Source: a virus (taxonomy: Duplodnaviria > Caudoviricetes). Taken from it: 64,000 nucleotides of DNA. Each line of letters begins with the position of its first letter. The stretch's first letter is position 1. Made by a program: the position numbers and the translations under genes. The notes beneath the pieces were generated by a model. It was not told the origin of the DNA. It saw only the letters and a list, made by a program, of their open reading frames with translations, and did not search any database. The DNA lies in IMG/VR virus record IMGVR_UViG_3300021963_000022. The stretch is one strand, 5' to 3'. Positions 470 through 63,355 of the stretch are shown in pieces.

Positions 470-470
470 T

Positions 471-638
471 ATGAAGAAAATTCTAGGAATGCTAGTAGTG
501 TTCCTAGGTTTCTCTACAGACACCTATGGCACTGAGTTAGAAAAATATATAGTCGGCCGAAATCCACAAGATATAGGCGACATTGAGCGATTGACCTACG
601 AGTTCCATCGCAAACAATCAGATTGGAGATTTCTATGA
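471..638 (+). CDS. Small protein, DUF3563-like
   Basis: MKKILGMLVVFLGFSTDTYGTELEKYIVGRNPQDIGDIERLTYEFHRKQSDWRFL; not in ORF track; ends in ATGA overlap. Confidence 0.55.
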   Translation: MKKILGMLVVFLGFSTDTYGTELEKYIVGRNPQDIGDIERLTYEFHRKQSDWRFL

Positions 639-718
639 ACACACTTAAAAAACTATTTCAAAGCCTATTAGAGGCAATTCAGTCTATCAAAGACTACAAA
701 GCGAGTAAGATGAAATGA
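635..718 (+). CDS. 27 aa mini-ORF
   Basis: MNTLKKLFQSLLEAIQSIKDYKASKMK; ATGA overlaps at both ends, GGAG upstream. Confidence 0.5.
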   Translation: MNTLKKLFQSLLEAIQSIKDYKASKMK

Positions 719-813
719 ATTTCATTAACGACCTAATTATGCTAATTAAATGGGCTAAAGAAGGTTGGGAAGTTCATCCAATCATTGACAATGAATTTAA
801 GGGTTGGATATGA
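715..813 (+). CDS. 32 aa mini-ORF
   Basis: MNFINDLIMLIKWAKEGWEVHPIIDNEFKGWI; ATGA-coupled to the previous ORF. Confidence 0.5.
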   Translation: MNFINDLIMLIKWAKEGWEVHPIIDNEFKGWI

Positions 814-870
814 TTAATTGGTGGCCTGTATCAGATGAAGAATGGGAGCAATTAAATTTTCCCGAAAGAT

Positions 871-899
871 TTGAACAACCTAAAAAAATGTCATATACT
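871..899 (+). promoter_or_regulatory. sigma70-type promoter
   Basis: TTGAAC-17-TATACT upstream of 930. Confidence 0.5.
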
Positions 900-929
900 A
901 TATGAACATTAACACACAAAGGAAATATA

Positions 930-50000: not shown

Positions 50001-50032
50001 GTTGAATTTCCTTTCTAAATTTCAATGCAAAT

Positions 50033-50061
50033 ATTATAGCACCAAAAGGATTTAATGTCAA
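50033..50061 (-). promoter_or_regulatory. sigma70 promoter
   Basis: TTGACA-17-TATAAT; upstream gene's TGA inside the -35. Confidence 0.85.
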
Positions 50062-50267
50062 CCTTTTAGTTTATGAATTAGTTCATTGTAATAAGATCCG
50101 GGTAATTCTTGTAGTGCATCTAGGAGCAATGCTTCAATCCTTCCGGTAACATACAATGCCGCATCTATTCTATTGCCTGGACGGCGATCCAAACAAGACT
50201 TAAACTGCCTAGATATAAATTCATCTACCAGTTGTTTGTGTAGTTCTTTTTTGGTAACGTCTTTCAT
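50058..50267 (-). CDS. Hypothetical protein
   Basis: GAGG RBS; coupled. Confidence 0.7.
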   Translation of the reverse strand: MKDVTKKELHKQLVDEFISRQFKSCLDRRPGNRIDAALYVTGRIEALLLDALQELPGSYYNELIHKLKG

Positions 50268-50422
50268 ACAAGTACCTCTCGGTTTGGATGTTTGTCTTTA
50301 CGACGGTATTGTACTTTGGATTGTACAACCTTAGGTTTGAACGGAGTGTTGCTACAAAACAACACTTTGTGGGCCCGATGTTTGGGCTGTTCAATAGTGA
50401 ATGATATAGTTCTTCGTTTCAT
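50264..50422 (-). CDS. 52 aa ArfA-like basic peptide
   Basis: PFKPKVVQSKVQYRRKDKHPNR resembles ArfA PLFRQRV...YMRKGKHGNR (ArfA recalled from memory). Confidence 0.5.
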   Translation of the reverse strand: MKRRTISFTIEQPKHRAHKVLFCSNTPFKPKVVQSKVQYRRKDKHPNREVLV

Positions 50423-50429
50423 AATGCGT

Positions 50430-50458
50430 ATTATAGCATAGAAACATATTTATGTCAA
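50430..50458 (-). promoter_or_regulatory. sigma70 promoter, probably leaderless transcript
   Basis: TTGACA-17-TATAAT, ATG 7 nt downstream. Confidence 0.8.
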
Positions 50459-57681: not shown

Positions 57682-57707
57682 AAATAGACCCCGAAGGGTC
57701 TATTTTT
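57682..57707. terminator. Bidirectional terminator
   Basis: AATAGACCC-CGAA-GGGTCTATT between convergent genes. Confidence 0.8.
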
Positions 57708-58281
57708 ACATTGCGGGTCCGTTCCCGTTTTTGAATCCTACTTCTCCACCTTCATCTTTGATTCGTTTAATAACATCTTCAAACAATATAGGTTTATAAT
57801 CAGTATGCTCAACACATACACAATGATAGCGAGGATCAATTACATGATCACCCCATACTTCAGTCATTACTCTATTAGCATGTAGGTGACCATGAATGTT
57901 AACACCAAATCTACCCAATGATTCAGTATGAATAGGTATATGACTTAATATCATACCATTCATCACGTGATAGGCACGTAGTTCACGGAAGTGTTCTCTA
58001 TACTCATTATCACGGAAGATATCATGGTTGCCACGAATCAATACTTTGTCACCGTTTAACCGACTCATAATCTTTAATGCTTTACGGTTGATAACAACAT
58101 CACCTAAGTGATATACTTTATCGTTTGGTCGTACTGTTTCGTTCCAACGCTTAACCATTTCTTCATCCATCTCATCGGCATTATCCCATGGGCGAAGTTT
58201 AGTCACTCCATCATTACGAGTGAATCTACATACTCCGGTATGTCCGAAGTGTGTGTCCGAAACTAAAAATACTGCTGGCAT
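57706..58281 (-). CDS. Calcineurin-like metallophosphoesterase
   Basis: SDTHFGH, HLGD, GNHD, SHIP, HGHLH; start placed at 58281. Confidence 0.9.
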   Translation of the reverse strand: MPAVFLVSDTHFGHTGVCRFTRNDGVTKLRPWDNADEMDEEMVKRWNETVRPNDKVYHLGDVVINRKALKIMSRLNGDKVLIRGNHDIFRDNEYREHFRELRAYHVMNGMILSHIPIHTESLGRFGVNIHGHLHANRVMTEVWGDHVIDPRYHCVCVEHTDYKPILFEDVIKRIKDEGGEVGFKNGNGPAM

Positions 58282-58282
58282 A

Positions 58283-58480
58283 TTATACTCCGTTTTTTCT
58301 TGATATCCAACCATTGTAGTTAGGGTCTGTTACTTCATCAACCCCGAATCTACCCACAATCTCTGTTGTTCCATCTGTTATAGAGACAAACTCATTAACA
58401 AGTTTTGCCATTTCCATAGCAATAATCAGGTCTTTATTTTCACCCCTGACATGACCATTACTATCTTTTACTAACCACAT
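58283..58480 (-). CDS. Hypothetical protein
   Basis: AAGGA RBS. Confidence 0.7.
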   Translation of the reverse strand: MWLVKDSNGHVRGENKDLIIAMEMAKLVNEFVSITDGTTEIVGRFGVDEVTDPNYNGWISRKNGV

Positions 58481-58489
58481 AATAATCCT

Positions 58490-58801
58490 TCAAGCTGTTA
58501 GCCAACCTATTTCATCTTTTGTTTCAACAGATTCGGCTCCGTCATACTCATTGATTTTAAACTCAGTGCCTTCAGGTACCCAAGCAACTTCTAAGTCCAT
58601 CATACCACCATCATATATTGCAGGGTACTTCAATGCCACATATGTTTGTAGTTCGTCAAATTTTTCGTCCAATACAAATTGTGCGATAGCAGGTTCAAAA
58701 ATAAGTTCAGGCATAGTAGGGTTCCAAGTGAACCATCCTGCACCAAAGCCAGGACTATATAATACAGCTACTTTCCCATTTCTAATTAGTTTGTTCATCA
58801 T
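58490..58801 (-). CDS. Hypothetical phage protein
   Basis: VAVLYSPGFGAGW...INEYDGAES. Confidence 0.8.
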   Translation of the reverse strand: MMNKLIRNGKVAVLYSPGFGAGWFTWNPTMPELIFEPAIAQFVLDEKFDELQTYVALKYPAIYDGGMMDLEVAWVPEGTEFKINEYDGAESVETKDEIGWLTA

Positions 58802-58818
58802 ATTTTACCTCTGTGTGT

Positions 58819-58847
58819 ATTATACATCTTTTGGGAATTATTGTCAA
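58819..58847 (-). promoter_or_regulatory. sigma70 promoter
   Basis: TTGACA-17-TATAAT. Confidence 0.85.
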
Positions 58848-58859
58848 GCGCAGTAAAAC

Positions 58860-59170
58860 ACACCCTAGATGCGCTAAATGTATATTATAGTATTAAGATA
58901 AAGGAACGAGTCATTATGACTGTATGCGGTTGTTTGGCTAGGGGTGCAAGACTATTTAGCTTATAAATTTAGTGTGTCAGCTACTAGCACTACCAAGCCC
59001 TGACATGGGTTTAAGGTTCCGTCCTACATATCTACATTTAGACAGTTATGCTCTGCCTTAGTGATTTCTCAAATTGCCCCTAAATTGAAGCCTTGCAGTA
59101 GATCCTAAGCACTGTGCAGTTATCGTTACCGCAATTACGCCTTCGTTAACGGAGAAGAGTAACCCGAGTG
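58860..59170. ncRNA. Candidate structured non-coding RNA (family and strand unknown)
   Basis: ORF-free ~300 nt region with several long-range complementary segments. Confidence 0.45.
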
Positions 59171-59176
59171 TTCTTA

Positions 59177-59968
59177 TTATAGTATAAATTGTCTTTGTTG
59201 TCTACTGTTTTTGGGCAAACTGTTATCTATATCTATATCAAAAATCCAACAGTCCATGACTTCATTTCGCATGTATTCAAAGGGCATGTAGCAGTATCCG
59301 TTAAGTCCCCAGTATTTTCCAAAACTATTTCTAACTAAAAATAATTTTTTGTTCAGGTCATAACCGACAAACGTCATAGCATGTGCTCCTAATAGAGCTT
59401 CATTTTTTTCTGGCATTTTTATAGTATTACCAGAATCATATAGGTCATCAAATGAGTTGTATACATGCATACTAAAAACTACAGGGTATTCTTTATTTAG
59501 TGCGTCTAATGTATCTTCTAGGGTAGAGATACGATAGTAATTTTTAATGGTTCTATTTTTAGCATCTTCATAGCATCTAACACTAGGAGGAACTGAAAAA
59601 TCTTCTATTAAGTATGGCCACAAATCTTCTTTGCATACACCATATTGTTGTACAGCTTTGATGGCATCACGCACGTATGCACCTACATCTTCACTAACAA
59701 CATCTTCAATCATTCGTGCATTGTAATACACAAACAATCTACTTAGGTCGACAAACTTACTAGGGTCTTGTTTGTTCATCATTAACTCATATGCACCCAC
59801 AACTGCTTGACCAGTACAACTTCCCAAATGACCTTGACTTTCAATAGGACTAGCCCATTTACGTAAGTCAACTACATCACGTAATGGTTCCCTTTTAAAG
59901 GTGTAAGGCAAGTCACGCCAATCGCTTGGGTCTTGCCTTACACGGTACTTAGATTTAAGTACTAGCAT
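59177..59968 (-). CDS. Papain-like (C1A) cysteine peptidase
   Basis: QGHLGSCTG, GAHAM, RNSFG..WG. Confidence 0.88.
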   Translation of the reverse strand: MLVLKSKYRVRQDPSDWRDLPYTFKREPLRDVVDLRKWASPIESQGHLGSCTGQAVVGAYELMMNKQDPSKFVDLSRLFVYYNARMIEDVVSEDVGAYVRDAIKAVQQYGVCKEDLWPYLIEDFSVPPSVRCYEDAKNRTIKNYYRISTLEDTLDALNKEYPVVFSMHVYNSFDDLYDSGNTIKMPEKNEALLGAHAMTFVGYDLNKKLFLVRNSFGKYWGLNGYCYMPFEYMRNEVMDCWIFDIDIDNSLPKNSRQQRQFIL

Positions 59969-60505: not shown

Positions 60506-60739
60506 TTATTTGTTTGGACGTAGATTTTCTCTAACTCTTTTTAAGTATTCACGACCAACTAATCCTGCTTCAATTTCTTGTAATGCAGTTACAGTTGGAC
60601 CTGCTTTAGTGTTAAGTGTAGAACGATGTCCACGTTTCAATTCTCTTACCCTTTGTGAGGCAATGAGAACTAAATCGAATCGATTGCCGATCATACTGGC
60701 GGCTTCTTCACTTGAATATCTTGCTCTAGATTCTGACAT
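60506..60739 (-). CDS. rpoZ: RNA polymerase omega subunit
   Basis: NRFDLVLIASQRVREL...PTVTALQEI. Confidence 0.88.
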   Translation of the reverse strand: MSESRARYSSEEAASMIGNRFDLVLIASQRVRELKRGHRSTLNTKAGPTVTALQEIEAGLVGREYLKRVRENLRPNK

Positions 60740-61288: not shown

Positions 61289-61364
61289 TGGAGCGGGCGA
61301 AGAGGCTCGAACTCTCGACATTTACCTTGGCAAGGTAATGCTCTACCAACTGAGCTACGCCCGC
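61289..61364 (-). tRNA. tRNA-Gly(GCC)
   Basis: GCGGGCGTAGCTCAG...TTGCCAA...TTCGAG...TCCA. Confidence 0.95.
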
Positions 61365-61365
61365 A

Positions 61366-61515
61366 TTAACTTGGAATAACATGTGGTATATATGGTACAT
61401 TACGTGGTCCATGTCGTTGTTCAAAAAGCTTTTTAGCTTCTTGTACGGTCGGTGCATACACACGATCTTTAGTATCACCTTGTGGTGTTCTAACTGTTGT
61501 TTCATACATTGGCAT
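61366..61515 (-). CDS. 49 aa protein between tRNAs
   Basis: AGGA RBS; MPMYETTVRTPQG... Confidence 0.6.
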   Translation of the reverse strand: MPMYETTVRTPQGDTKDRVYAPTVQEAKKLFEQRHGPRNVPYIPHVIPS

Positions 61516-61529
61516 ATATTATTCCTATT

Positions 61530-61604
61530 TGGTACATCGACACGGTTTCGAACCGCGGACCCTCTCCGTGTAAAGGAGACGCTCTACCCCTGAGCTATCG
61601 ATGC
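61530..61604 (-). tRNA. tRNA-Val(TAC)
   Basis: TCTCC-TTTACAC-GGAGA anticodon arm; CCA. Confidence 0.93.
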
Positions 61605-61614
61605 CTTATTCTAT

Positions 61615-61794
61615 TTAACCACCCTGTGTGCTATCTTTAACTTTTGTTTCACTAACAATACGTTCAAATTCATCATCTTCGTTTTTGTGATCCTCAACAA
61701 TTCTTGGATCAGGCTTACGAAAGATTAAGTCAAAGTTACTATCAAATGTCTTTAATGGGACACTAAATGGTCTTGGACTAGAACCCTTACTCAT
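61615..61794 (-). CDS. 59 aa protein
   Basis: MSKGSSPRPFSV...; ATGA-coupled. Confidence 0.6.
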   Translation of the reverse strand: MSKGSSPRPFSVPLKTFDSNFDLIFRKPDPRIVEDHKNEDDEFERIVSETKVKDSTQGG

Positions 61795-61955
61795 TTGTTA
61801 TTAGTCTTTCCAGAACCACGTGAATTACTTTGTTCAATCACAGCAAAACTGCGAATGAATGCACCACGTTCATGTGCGTCACGAATTTTTGCCGCGGCAC
61901 GTTTAACTGTCTTTGAAACTTTCACTGCTTTCGCATCATATCCTCTGCATGTCAT
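61791..61955 (-). CDS. 54 aa basic protein
   Basis: AAGGA RBS; MTCRGYDAKAVKVSKTVKR. Confidence 0.6.
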   Translation of the reverse strand: MTCRGYDAKAVKVSKTVKRAAAKIRDAHERGAFIRSFAVIEQSNSRGSGKTNNK

Positions 61956-61977
61956 AATATTTCCTTTTTAATTAAAT

Positions 61978-62055
61978 TGGTCGGAATGGTGGGATTCGAA
62001 CTCACGACCCTCTGCTCCCAAAGCAGATGCGCTAACCAGACTGCGCTACACTCCG
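61978..62055 (-). tRNA. tRNA-Pro(TGG)
   Basis: CGGAGTGTAGCGCAG...TTTGGGA...CCA. Confidence 0.95.
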
Positions 62056-62062
62056 AATATTC

Positions 62063-62383
62063 TTACCAGTAGTACCAGTGTGGCTTACGGCTCACACTAG
62101 GGTAATCAATGATATCCAAATCATTGATATCTACATTCAATACAATTTTCTCCCACTGACGACCTTTTGCTCGTTGTGGTTGATTCATCATTTCACGAAC
62201 CCACCACATGGGAGTGCTCATCCAGTGATACTCTGTATCAACTTTTTTTTTCTTTTTTGTTAAAACCCCGGGGTATTGTAAATAGTCAATATACTTACGA
62301 TTACCAATGAGGTAATATTTGTAATCCCAATCTTCTTCAGGGAATCTGAGTTTACTGGGACGATCTTTGTACGTTCTAGACAT
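62063..62383 (-). CDS. Hypothetical protein
   Basis: AAGGAG RBS; MSRTYKD...W..TP.WW. Confidence 0.75.
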   Translation of the reverse strand: MSRTYKDRPSKLRFPEEDWDYKYYLIGNRKYIDYLQYPGVLTKKKKKVDTEYHWMSTPMWWVREMMNQPQRAKGRQWEKIVLNVDINDLDIIDYPSVSRKPHWYYW

Positions 62384-62432
62384 AAAGTTCTCCTTATCTA
62401 AAATCGCATATTGACCTCGCTTTCTTAATGGT

Positions 62433-62507
62433 TGGTTGCGGGGGACGGATTCGCACCGCCGATCTTCAGCTTATGAGACTGATGAGTTACTACTTCTCCA
62501 CCCCACG
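62433..62507 (-). tRNA. tRNA-Met(CAT), initiator-like but atypical
   Basis: C1.A72, A11:U24, anticodon loop CTCATAA; lacks the three G:C pairs. Confidence 0.85.
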
Positions 62508-62530
62508 GTATATATTGTTATGATGTGAAT

Positions 62531-62707
62531 TTATGCTACAATAGGACGAAACTCAACCTTGAGTCCGTCTTCAACGTTGAAGTCTGATAGCAAACCGTTT
62601 GCTTTGGCAATATTTATTTCTTGCCAATAGTCTTTGGGTTGATAGCTATCACCCGTAACAGTTATTGTTTTATAAATTTTATCATTTATTAAAATTTTTA
62701 CTCGCAT
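62531..62707 (-). CDS. Hypothetical protein
   Basis: TAAATA 5 nt before ATG 62707. Confidence 0.6.
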   Translation of the reverse strand: MRVKILINDKIYKTITVTGDSYQPKDYWQEINIAKANGLLSDFNVEDGLKVEFRPIVA

Positions 62708-62725
62708 AATACTATTTATCATATC

Positions 62726-62801
62726 TGGTGGAGGATACAGGGATCGAACCTGCGACCTATTGCTTGCAAAGCAACCGCTCTCCCAACTGAGCTAATCCCC
62801 C
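62726..62801 (-). tRNA. tRNA-Ala(TGC)
   Basis: G3:U70, TTTGCAA loop, CCA. Confidence 0.95.
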
Positions 62802-62806
62802 TAATT

Positions 62807-62891
62807 TGGTACGAGTGGCCGGAATCGAACCGGCACACCTTTCGGCGAGAGATTTTAAGTCTCTTGTGTCTACCTATTTCACCACACTCGC
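62807..62891 (-). tRNA. tRNA-Leu(TAA)
   Basis: Long variable arm; CTTAAAA loop; CCA. Confidence 0.93.
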
Positions 62892-62892
62892 A

Positions 62893-63057
62893 TTATCTCA
62901 CAAATGCCTGAAAGTAATATGTAGTTGGGTTTAATGCATACCAACTACGAACCACACTGACACCACCTTGCGGTTGCCAGCCTTCAGACAATAATTCTGC
63001 TACTAGTTTATGAAATTCATCATAACTAGCATTTATAACCTTATACTCTGTTATCAT
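62893..63057 (-). CDS. DUF1737-like small protein
   Basis: YKVI...V..LL.EGWQPQGGVS; start placed at 63057. Confidence 0.6.
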   Translation of the reverse strand: MITEYKVINASYDEFHKLVAELLSEGWQPQGGVSVVRSWYALNPTTYYFQAFVR

Positions 63058-63062
63058 AACTT

Positions 63063-63147
63063 TGGTGCTCCAGGTCGGACTCGAACCGACACGCCTTTCG
63101 GCACTGGCTTCTAAGACCAGCGTGGCTACCAATTACACCACCAGAGC
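63063..63147 (-). tRNA. tRNA-Leu(TAG)
   Basis: Long variable arm; CTTAGAA loop; CCA. Confidence 0.93.
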
Positions 63148-63173
63148 AATTAAACTTTTTAAAGAACATACAT

Positions 63174-63202
63174 AGTATATAACAATAATCATATACTGTC
63201 AA
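63174..63202 (-). promoter_or_regulatory. sigma70 promoter for tRNA cluster
   Basis: TTGACA-17-TATACT. Confidence 0.75.
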
Positions 63203-63279
63203 ACATTTTGGGTTAGAAGAACTCAGACGTATAATAATCATTTACCGGTTAGTTATCACAGAGGTCCAAGCCTTGTTAT

Positions 63280-63355
63280 TGGAGCGGGAGGCGAGAGTCG
63301 AACTCGTCTATTTCTGCTTGGAAGGCAGACGTGTAACCAAAAACACTTCACCCGC
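63280..63355 (-). tRNA. tRNA-Gly(TCC), atypical
   Basis: TCTGC-CTTCCAA-GCAGA arm, U73, CCA; A8, U6.U67 and A.C mismatches. Confidence 0.8.

What the first reader, a model, noticed from the sequence alone, without database searches (positions are those of the whole stretch)
58860..59170. ~300 nt ORF-free element with crossing long-range helices
Seen (plus coordinates): CTAAATGTA 58874 / TACATTTAG 59033; GGAAC 58903 / GTTCC 59016; TGTCAG 58975 / CTGACA 59000; TAGGGGTGCAA 58939 / TTGCCCCTA 59074 (one bulge); TGCGGT 58925 / ACCGCA 59128; alternative AATTTAG 58966 / CTAAATT 59080. The first and second sets cross, implying a pseudoknot or a switch. This is the largest gap in a dense genome. It does not look like tRNA, tmRNA, RNase P or a group I core to me.
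Basis: partly seen in the sequence, partly recalled or inferred. Interest (0 to 1): 0.68.

Follow-up and report, generated by a model that had tools for sequence, protein, structure and literature searches.

The report
New structured RNA in lake phage
The flagged gap holds a real gene for a folded, roughly 200-base non-coding RNA of an uncatalogued family that giant freshwater phages carry beside their tRNA genes, often right behind a Ro60-like RNA-binding protein gene; the rest of the gap is a recurring terminator/promoter cassette, and the RNA's job is untested.

Summary
The stretch also folds no better than shuffled sequence.

A structured RNA is nevertheless present, on the minus strand at 59171-58974 (about 198 nt). 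It starts 5-7 nt after a near-consensus sigma-70 promoter (59204-59176). I found 14 distinct homologues (49-83% identical) in uncultured phage contigs. They share seven local helices: 95% of cells are paired, 27 of 41 pairs show compensatory changes, and no shuffle reaches this. No Rfam family matches any member.

The remaining 58973-58812 is a separate, recurring stem-loop plus promoter cassette that resembles the PeSL cassettes of T4-type phages.

In relatives the RNA lies either between tRNA genes or 3-84 nt behind a DUF2828/DUF7788 gene. The predicted fold of that protein is Ro60 (TROVE plus vWA). So the most specific functional idea is a Y-RNA-like partner (about 30%). This window has no such gene, and the RNA lacks the defining Y-RNA features.

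No expression data cover the RNA.

The parts
59176..59220 (-). Promoter of the RNA gene: upstream motif GTTTGCCCAAAAACAG, -35 TAGACA (59204-59199), 17-nt spacer, -10 TATAAT (59181-59176). The stop codon of the peptidase gene (59179-59177) lies inside the -10 box.
   Evidence: 11 of 12 consensus matches with a 17-nt spacer. L102 has the same extended motif and a TATAAT at the same distance from its copy of the RNA; the extended motif occurs once in the window, with 0 expected by chance.
58974..59171 (-). Core structured RNA (model R1), about 198 nt. In window coordinates its helices are: P1 hairpin about 59162-59136; P2 59133-59129 with 59119-59115; P3 59114-59110 with 59100-59096; P4 59094-59088 with 59079-59071; P5 59058-59053 with 59045-59040; P6 59020-59019 with 59009-59008; P7 59005-58994 with 58987-58975. 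Candidate pseudoknot: CACU 59170-59167 with loop AGUG 58991-58988.
   Evidence: homologues found and aligned; 94-95% of cells paired, 19 and 27 of 41 pairs with compensatory change, 0 of 500 shuffles as high, slid controls give 3-8; 183.6 bits against the model; 63 G-U cells, 95.3% paired on this strand against 84.7% on the other; coordinates; the pseudoknot is weakly supported.
58848..58973 (-). Trailer plus conserved stem-loop part of a terminator/promoter cassette. It holds inverted arms CACCCCUAG (58946-58938) and CUAGGGUGUG (58868-58859) followed by UUUUA, an inner hairpin AGUCAUAAUGACU (58921-58909), and a hairpin GCGCA (58874-58870) with UGCGC (58852-58848) that abuts the -35 box.
   Evidence: the same module stands in at least 12 other phage loci, in front of different genes. 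GCGCA/UGCGC changes to GAGCA/UGCUC in L060 and L101; coordinates.
58819..58847 (-). Consensus sigma-70 promoter of the downstream 103-aa gene: TTGACA, 17-nt spacer, TATAAT.
   Evidence: 12 of 12 matches; conserved with the cassette in relatives.
58490..58801 (-). Downstream gene, 103 aa, no family. It is not part of the RNA.
   Evidence: about 28 IMG/VR contigs carry it at about 90% DNA identity, with unrelated flanks.
59177..59968 (-). Upstream gene, a papain-like cysteine peptidase (263 aa). In this phage it takes the place that a DUF2828/DUF7788 (Ro60-like) gene or rpoZ holds in relatives.
   Evidence: PF00112 at 1.1e-16; synteny.

Best explanation
Shown:
- Window 59171-58974 (minus strand) is a stand-alone gene for a structured non-coding RNA of about 198 nt. 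It belongs to a family (model R1) that Rfam 15 does not hold.
- The family has seven conserved local helices. The strand is set by its many G-U pairs.

Inferred from sequence:
- In this phage the RNA is transcribed from its own near-consensus sigma-70-type promoter (59204-59176). The start falls within the first three bases of the conserved block.
- Transcription runs into a conserved stem-loop cassette (58946-58848) that ends in a U-run and is followed at once by the promoter of the next gene. This is a PeSL-like terminator/promoter cassette.
- The mature RNA probably ends a few bases after helix P7 (about 58974). In relatives a tRNA gene or a promoter begins 5-9 nt after that point.

Context in relatives: the same RNA is delivered in other ways. 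It is cut out of tRNA operons (L022, L103, L107), or it is co-transcribed 3-84 nt behind a DUF2828/DUF7788 gene. That protein's predicted fold is Ro60 (TROVE ring plus vWA).

Inference: the RNA acts in trans as a stable, protein-binding RNA of the phage's tRNA / RNA-end-healing gene block (DSP phosphatase, AAA_33 kinase, metallophosphoesterase).

Most specific guess (about 30%): it is the Y-RNA-like partner of the Ro60-like protein, where that protein is present.
For: Homologues: a 19-base pattern from the invariant loop found 14 IMG/VR loci. Three further members came from contigs that encode DUF2828 proteins and from the model search.

Structure:
- With 11 sequences, 94.2% of cells are paired and 19 of 41 pairs carry compensatory changes, against 3-5 in slid controls; 0 of 500 shuffles reach this.
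- With 14 sequences, 95.3% are paired and 27 of 41 pairs covary.
- Strand: 63 G-U cells, and pairing drops to 84.7% on the other strand.
- Natural variants in Logan contigs keep P2, P4 and P7 through wobble or compensatory changes. Their homology stops at 59172 and at 58979, which are the RNA's ends.

Discrete unit:
- Homology to L060 begins exactly at ACACUCGG, 59171.
- What flanks the RNA differs from locus to locus.

Promoter: and the same extended promoter stands in L102.

Link to tRNAs: in L022 the RNA sits 2 nt after tRNA-Ala and 9 nt before tRNA-Met. In L103 and L107 it is 5-8 nt before a tRNA.

Link to DUF2828: L060, L097, L098, L100/L105, L101, L104/L108, L125/L126 and L127.

Ro60 fold: the AlphaFold model has pLDDT 92.5. 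The top 13 Foldseek PDB hits are all Ro60/TROVE structures, including the Ro60 of Thermus phage phiLo, with E 7.5e-9 to 8e-6 and TM about 0.6.

Precedent: Y RNAs are encoded next to Ro60 genes in bacteria and phages (PMC4201824, PMC12135203).

Cassette.

Not a known family.
Against: - No transcript data cover the RNA, so the promoter, the ends and the RNA's stability are all inferred.
- This sequence does not fold better than shuffles.

Against the Y-RNA idea:
- The 64-kb window has no DUF2828-like gene.
- Five other records that carry the RNA show none, although these are 2-31% fragments.
- In L106 the RNA follows rpoZ directly.
- Many DUF2828 loci lack the RNA. These include close ones at 78-87% identity and distant ones at 50-58%.
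- A complete 367-kb relative lacks it.
- The RNA has no 5'/3' terminal stem, no conserved GNCGAA(N)G motif and no tRNA-like domain, and the Rfam YrlA model does not match it.
- Adjacency may only reflect a shared slot in one phage lineage.
Confidence: 0.7

Rival explanations
1. The RNA is real, but it works independently of the Ro60-like protein. It would be a passenger of phage tRNA operons, like T4 RNA C/D or GOLLD. It could be a decoy or scaffold for host or phage tRNA-handling enzymes, or a regulator of another kind. Its place next to DUF2828 would then be only inherited gene order.
For: - The RNA occurs without any DUF2828 gene in the window, in L022's 110-kb record and in L103, L106 and L107.
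- In L022, L103 and L107 it is embedded between tRNAs.
- L103 carries GOLLD in the same array.
- The slot 'rpoZ ... RNA ... phosphatase/kinase/phosphoesterase' is kept whether or not DUF2828 is present.
- The RNA lacks Y-RNA hallmarks (PMC4201824).
Against: - In 8 of 14 distinct contexts the RNA starts 3-750 nt behind a DUF2828/DUF7788 gene on the same strand. These span protein clades of 58-97% identity.
- No alternative partner or target has been identified.
Confidence: 0.4
2. One reading: one element of about 300 nt (58860-59170) held together by crossing long-range helices, forming a pseudoknot or a two-state switch.
For: The complementary segments exist in this sequence. A weak 5'-end/loop pseudoknot is possible.
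Against: - Four of the six helices are not conserved in L060.
- In a natural variant, the sequence to the left of 58979 is replaced altogether while the core is kept.
- In 12 of 14 homologues the core is followed by unrelated sequence.
- The left part is an independent cassette found without the RNA in at least 8 loci.
- There is no thermodynamic excess.
Confidence: 0.04
3. A cis-acting leader (riboswitch or attenuator) that controls the downstream 103-aa gene, or a 3'-UTR element of the upstream gene.
For: It lies between two same-strand genes. A terminator-like hairpin with a U-run follows it.
Against: - A 12-of-12 consensus promoter sits between the RNA and the 103-aa gene.
- The same RNA is followed in relatives by tRNAs, promoters or an opposite-strand gene, and is preceded by four different kinds of neighbour.
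- The 103-aa gene occurs in about 28 contigs without the RNA.
Confidence: 0.05
4. Not an RNA gene: a decayed coding remnant, a replication origin or a protein-binding DNA region.
For: - The gap lies in a mosaic, indel-rich region.
- The cassette arms ACACCCTAG/CTAGGGTGT are invariant, as protein-binding sites would be.
Against: - Compensatory base changes occur in 27 of 41 pairs, and the strand-specific G-U pairs are RNA signatures.
- G+C is 0.40-0.415, not AT-rich.
- There are no iterons or tandem repeats among the repeats found.
- No ORF is conserved.
Confidence: 0.03

Closest known systems
Y RNAs / YrlA, the non-coding RNA partners of Ro60 (Rsr), including the phage cases (PMC4201824; Thermus phage phiLo Yrl1/Yrl2, PMC12135203; Rfam RF02553)
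   Same: - A small structured RNA encoded on the same strand directly beside a gene for a Ro60-fold protein (TROVE ring plus vWA with a MIDAS motif) in 8 of 14 contexts.
- It lies in a neighbourhood of RNA-repair-type enzymes and tRNAs.
- It occurs in large phages.
   Different: - No 5'/3' terminal stem.
- No conserved GNCGAA(N)G Ro-binding motif.
- No tRNA-like T/D-arm module, and no RF02553 match.
- About 200 nt rather than about 100-120 nt.
- The protein partner is the divergent DUF2828/DUF7788 family, not a Pfam TROVE hit.
- The RNA also occurs where no such gene is seen, this window included.
- Binding is untested.
Phage T4 small stable RNAs C and D (species 1 and 2) of the T4 tRNA cluster. 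This comes from my own knowledge and was also named as closest known by earlier notes e1-5389029, e1-5389045 and e1-5389030; I did not compare the sequences.
   Same: Stable-RNA-type genes of a T4-type phage that sit in or beside the tRNA gene cluster, are presumably released by tRNA-processing enzymes, and have no known function.
   Different: - No sequence or Rfam relation was tested or found.
- Here the gene has its own promoter, 2.1 kb from the tRNA array.
- The family is defined by seven covarying helices.
GOLLD RNA (Rfam RF02032)
   Same: A structured RNA of freshwater phages embedded in tRNA arrays, of unknown function. A GOLLD copy (222.8 bits) lies 1.2 kb from an R1 member in L103.
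   Different: GOLLD is more than 400 nt and ornate. R1 is about 200 nt and does not match the GOLLD model.
PeSL cassettes (composite terminator / early-promoter motifs) of T4-type phages (PMC2839356, PMC4122927)
   Same: This applies to 58946-58819 only. It is a short, conserved stem-loop plus consensus sigma-70 promoter that recurs at the borders of variable genes and marks where unrelated sequences are joined.
   Different: - The sequence is unrelated to published PeSLs, as far as I could check from abstracts only.
- The stem-loop is unusually wide, with 47-70 nt between the arms.
- A role in recombination is inferred only.

Membership tests
Any Rfam 15 family | Covariance-model match at or near the gathering score | tested here: not met
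   Nothing at E up to 10 on window 58700-59300. Nothing overlaps the RNA in L022, L097, L103 or L107 at E up to 1.
tRNA / tmRNA | Cloverleaf or tmRNA detected by ARAGORN or RF00005 | tested here: not met
   the only tRNAs lie at 61289-63355.
Y RNA / YrlA | Encoded next to a Ro60 (TROVE plus vWA) gene | tested here: inconclusive
   Met in 8 of 14 relatives. The neighbouring gene is DUF2828/DUF7788, whose model matches Ro60 structures. Not met in this window, nor in L022, L103, L106 and L107.
Y RNA / YrlA | Stem formed by the 5' and 3' ends that carries the Ro-binding site (GNCGAAN0-1G in YrlA; PMC4201824) | tested here: not met
   The consensus structure has no terminal stem. No conserved GNCGAA(N)G is visible in alignments A4 and A7.
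Y RNA / YrlA | tRNA-like domain (T arm, D arm) or a match to RF02553 | tested here: not met
   No RF02553 hit on any member. No T-loop or D-loop consensus in the alignment.
Y RNA / YrlA | Binds Ro60 | not testable with these tools
   Needs a gel-shift or co-purification experiment.
GOLLD (RF02032) | Match to the GOLLD model | tested here: not met
   GOLLD is found in L103:2601-3063, but not at any R1 copy.
PeSL-type terminator/promoter cassette (for 58946-58819 only) | Conserved stem-loop joined to an early sigma-70-type promoter | tested here: met
   Promoter with 12 of 12 matches. The stem-loop arms and the promoter are conserved in at least 12 loci.
PeSL-type terminator/promoter cassette (for 58946-58819 only) | Recurs at the junctions of otherwise unrelated genes in T4-type phages | tested here: met
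   The cassette precedes three different genes (MMNKL..., MPWIQ..., MSVYA...) and a tRNA. Homology of the 103-aa gene stops at its borders. That the phage is T4-type rests on earlier notes, which I did not test.
New family R1 (defined here) | Full-length match to model R1 with the seven helices | tested here: met
   Window 58974-59171 on the minus strand scores 183.6 bits, E 1e-63, covering model positions 1-200. Because the window sequence was used to build the model, the match is by construction. Independent members: L022 (53 bits), L125 and L127.

The most novel reading that the evidence does not exclude
R1 is the RNA subunit of a new kind of phage Ro60-type particle. In this reading it is a Y-RNA analogue with a wholly different architecture (seven hairpins and a 5'-end/loop pseudoknot, with no terminal stem). 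It would bind the DUF2828/DUF7788 TROVE-like ring protein and work with the neighbouring phosphatase, kinase and phosphoesterase to repair or shield tRNAs cut by host defence nucleases. Phages such as this one would keep the RNA alone and use another partner.
Probability: 0.25. Interest if true: 0.75.

Novelty: new variant of a known kind. Interest (0 to 1): 0.55.

Why it matters
- Large phages fill their tRNA regions with stable RNAs whose functions are almost all unknown. Here one more family is defined, with exact ends, a covariation-backed structure, a search model and a likely promoter, so it can be ordered and tested directly.
- The link to a Ro60-fold protein matters more. By tblastn that protein family (DUF2828/DUF7788) is present in 710 cultured phage records, including phages of Escherichia, Salmonella, Mycobacterium, Listeria and Staphylococcus.
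- If these proteins carry their own RNA partners, Ro/Y-type RNA surveillance or counter-defence would be a common and overlooked phage function.
- The finding also shows how terminator/promoter cassettes move an RNA gene between a tRNA operon, a 3'-UTR position and a free-standing unit.

Tried and rejected
Searches that found no homologue:
- blastn of the gap, and of the L097 copy, against 50,697 deposited phage records gave no match.
- The flanking-gene route failed. The 30 contigs with the 103-aa gene and the 3 with the peptidase do not carry the RNA.
- The pattern GGACGGAACCTTAAACCC gave one true hit (L060) and three chance hits.
- The two-block pattern found only L060 in IMG/VR.
- The loop pattern in 185,579 bacterial genomes gave 9 hits. 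All lie inside unrelated coding sequence, and about 4 were expected by chance.

Expression:
- The one RNA run that held part of the stretch (X20) covers only 58547-58750, inside the 103-aa gene, and nothing of the RNA. The other runs I laid are DNA contigs. Expression is therefore neither shown nor excluded.

Other negative searches:
- Model R1 found no copy in four relatives' records, among them a complete 367-kb genome. It found none in DUF2828 loci L118-L124, L128-L134, L136 and L137.
- I looked for a DUF2828 gene in the window by tblastn and with a profile HMM and found none.
- No whole genome is held for this window.

Structural ideas dropped:
- A closing helix ACUCGG/CCGGGU competes with P3, and L103 does not support it.
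- A kissing pair UUAAGG/CCUUAA is absent in L102 and L103.
- RNAalifold's G7-G8 with C172-C173 was replaced by the covarying pair 160-172.
- An all-against-all covariation listing was too noisy with 11 sequences.

Literature: a full-text search for 'DUF2828' gave nothing relevant.

Full report
**Setting.** The gap 58802-59176 lies between two minus-strand genes. One is a 103-aa ORF with no family (58490-58801). The other is a papain-like peptidase (59177-59968; PF00112, E 1e-16). The window belongs to an uncultured phage with a tRNA array at 61289-63355. It has no close relative among deposited phages. DNA runs from 15 studies, mostly freshwater, hold the stretch.

**Checking the observation.**
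- The motif ATTTAG/CTAAAT occurs five times in the stretch.
- The stretch folds no better than dinucleotide shuffles. The z-scores are +1.3 and +2.0 for 321 nt on the two strands, and +0.2 for the core.
- It is not the largest ORF-free gap in the window.
- Rfam gives nothing, even at E = 10.

**Promoters.** Two near-consensus sigma-70 promoters lie on the minus strand.
- TAGACA-17-TATAAT at 59204-59176 overlaps the stop codon of the peptidase gene.
- TTGACA-17-TATAAT at 58847-58819 stands in front of the 103-aa gene.

The gap is therefore framed as its own transcription unit.

**Finding relatives.**
- Flanking genes did not lead to homologues. The 103-aa gene is about 90% identical in DNA in about 28 contigs whose flanks are unrelated.
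- An 18-mer found L060, which aligns over the whole gap. The homology starts exactly at ACACUCGG, 59171.
- The loop that is invariant between the two sequences (GGCTTGGTAGTGCNAGTAGC) then found 14 IMG/VR loci.
- The same pattern in bacterial genomes hit only unrelated coding sequence.
- In all relatives the similarity ends a few bases after helix P7. What follows differs from locus to locus: a tRNA, a promoter, another element or an opposite-strand gene.
- Logan contigs show natural variants whose homology stops at 59172 and at 58979.
- The conserved unit is therefore 59171-58974, about 198 nt.

**Structure.**
- RNAalifold and a manual refinement give seven helices.
- On 11 distinct sequences, 94.2% of cells pair and 19 of 41 pairs have changes on both sides. 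Partners slid by 1-3 columns give 3-5 such pairs, and 0 of 500 shuffles reach the observed values.
- On 14 sequences aligned to model R1, 95.3% of cells pair and 27 of 41 pairs covary. This alignment is fitted to the model and so leans towards it.
- P2 is UGCGG/CUGCA here, and GGUUG/CAACC, GGCGG/CCGCC, GGCAG/CUGCC, GAUGG/CCAUC or UGAUA/UAUCA elsewhere.
- The pair 59020-59008 switches cleanly between G-C (6 sequences) and A-U (5 to 8 sequences).
- The 63 G-U cells fix the strand. Pairing falls to 84.7% on the opposite strand.
- Variants in Logan contigs change C41-G55 to U-G, G42-U54 to A-U and G-U to G-C in P4, and they insert a matching base pair in P7.
Four have no counterpart in L060.
- A 4-bp pseudoknot between CACU at the 5' end and AGUG in the P7 loop is possible. 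It rests on one compensatory change in L022, and 36 of 500 shuffles do as well.

**The left third of the flagged stretch.** Window 58946-58812 is homologous to a module in at least 12 other loci. The module consists of:
- ACACCCTAG, then 47-59 nt, then CTAGGGTGT and a T-run;
- a hairpin GCGCA/TGCGC, which becomes GAGCA/TGCTC in L060 and L101;
- TTGACA-17-TATAAT.

It stands in front of different genes or a tRNA. This matches the description of PeSL terminator/promoter cassettes of T4-type phages (PMC2839356, PMC4122927). It probably ends the RNA's transcript and starts the next one.

**Context in relatives.**
- In L022, the closest syntenic relative, a divergent member (53 bits) is wedged between tRNA-Ala and tRNA-Met. 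The same gap in this window holds unrelated sequence.
- In L103 and L107 the RNA ends 5-8 nt before a tRNA. L103 also carries GOLLD.
- In L060, L097, L098, L100, L101, L104, L125 and L127 it follows a 470-aa DUF2828/DUF7788 gene.
- I folded that protein with 83 diverse homologues (pLDDT 92.5). The best 13 PDB matches are all Ro60/TROVE structures, one of them from a phage.
- The wider gene order is conserved: tRNA-Val, tRNA-Gly, methyltransferase, rpoZ, then DUF2828 or nothing or 114 aa plus peptidase, then the RNA, then DSP phosphatase, AAA_33 kinase and metallophosphoesterase.

**Interpretation.**
- The core claim is well supported: this is a discrete, trans-acting structured RNA gene of a new family.
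- Its function is inferred only. Adjacency to a Ro60-fold gene parallels the rule by which bacterial and phage Y RNAs were found (PMC4201824, PMC12135203).
- Several facts count against that reading:
  - The RNA lacks the Y-RNA hallmarks.
  - The window has no DUF2828 gene.
  - Other carriers of the RNA show none.
  - Most DUF2828 loci lack the RNA.
  - A complete relative lacks it.
- I put the Y-RNA-like reading at about 30%, and a Ro-independent role in the tRNA/RNA-repair block at about 40%.
- No expression evidence could be obtained.

**Relation to earlier notes of the scan.** The scan had noted this stretch before (e1-5389035; its follow-up was withheld). It had also reported other unassigned RNAs in this genome's tRNA array. 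My results agree with that picture and add the family definition, the correct boundaries and the Ro60-like neighbour.

Noticed in passing
L060:5840-7258 and homologues (L098, L101, L125, L127 and others): The DUF2828+DUF7788 protein has a confidently predicted Ro60 fold (TROVE ring plus vWA, with a conserved DxSxS MIDAS motif). tblastn finds it in 710 cultured phage records, where it is mostly annotated as hypothetical and sometimes as 'RNA-binding protein'.
   Followed up: partly
L137:4371-4491 and L137:4501-4613 (Cronobacter phage S13, NC_028773): Right behind this phage's DUF2828 gene lie two tRNA-shaped RNAs of 121 and 113 nt. They share an inserted module of about 50 nt (ACGCAAACUGAYAAGUUUGUAUUCAGCA) where the anticodon loop should be. 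They are annotated as tRNA-Ser and tRNA-OTHER, and could be partner RNAs of the Ro60-like protein.
   Followed up: partly
L103:2601-3063: A full GOLLD RNA (222.8 bits) with an embedded tRNA-Lys lies in the same tRNA array as an R1 member (L103:1242-1443).
   Followed up: no
L096, L098, L127: the 110 nt just 3' of the R1 copy: A second conserved element follows R1 in three loci. It has a hairpin with a CCCA-starting loop whose stem changes (GGGC/GCCC, GGUC/GACC), followed by AAUYAAACUAAA ... UUACC. It may be another small RNA.
   Followed up: no
L100, L104, L127: about 70 nt just 5' of the R1 copy: A conserved element of about 65 nt, closed by CUAGG/CCUAG with an inner hairpin AAGUGU/ACACUU, lies between the DUF2828 gene and R1.
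   Followed up: no
L040, L042, L038, L052 and relatives: about 130 nt upstream of the cassette promoter: In DUF2828 loci that lack R1, the gene is followed by a terminator and then a hairpin CCAG-CCGAUAAGA-CUGG. The hairpin becomes CCUG...CAGG in L038 and L052, which is a compensatory change.
   Followed up: no
window 58490-58801: The 103-aa gene is about 90-92% identical in DNA in about 28 IMG/VR contigs, but the similarity stops at the gene's borders. It behaves like a shuffled gene cassette bounded by promoter cassettes.
   Followed up: partly
window 62508-62725: The gap between tRNA-Ala and tRNA-Met is AT-rich and unrelated to the R1-like RNA that fills the same gap in the syntenic relative L022.
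   Followed up: partly
window 470-929 and 50001-50454: Two ORF-free stretches (no ORF of 70 aa or more on either strand) that are longer than the flagged gap. Model R1 does not match them.
   Followed up: no
window 57706-58314 and 60506-60739: A metallophosphoesterase (phrog_547, E 7e-51) and an rpoZ-like gene (PF01192, E 2e-11) frame the region. In relatives the same frame also holds a DSP-type phosphatase and an AAA_33 kinase, which looks like an RNA-end-healing set. Both of those are missing here.
   Followed up: partly
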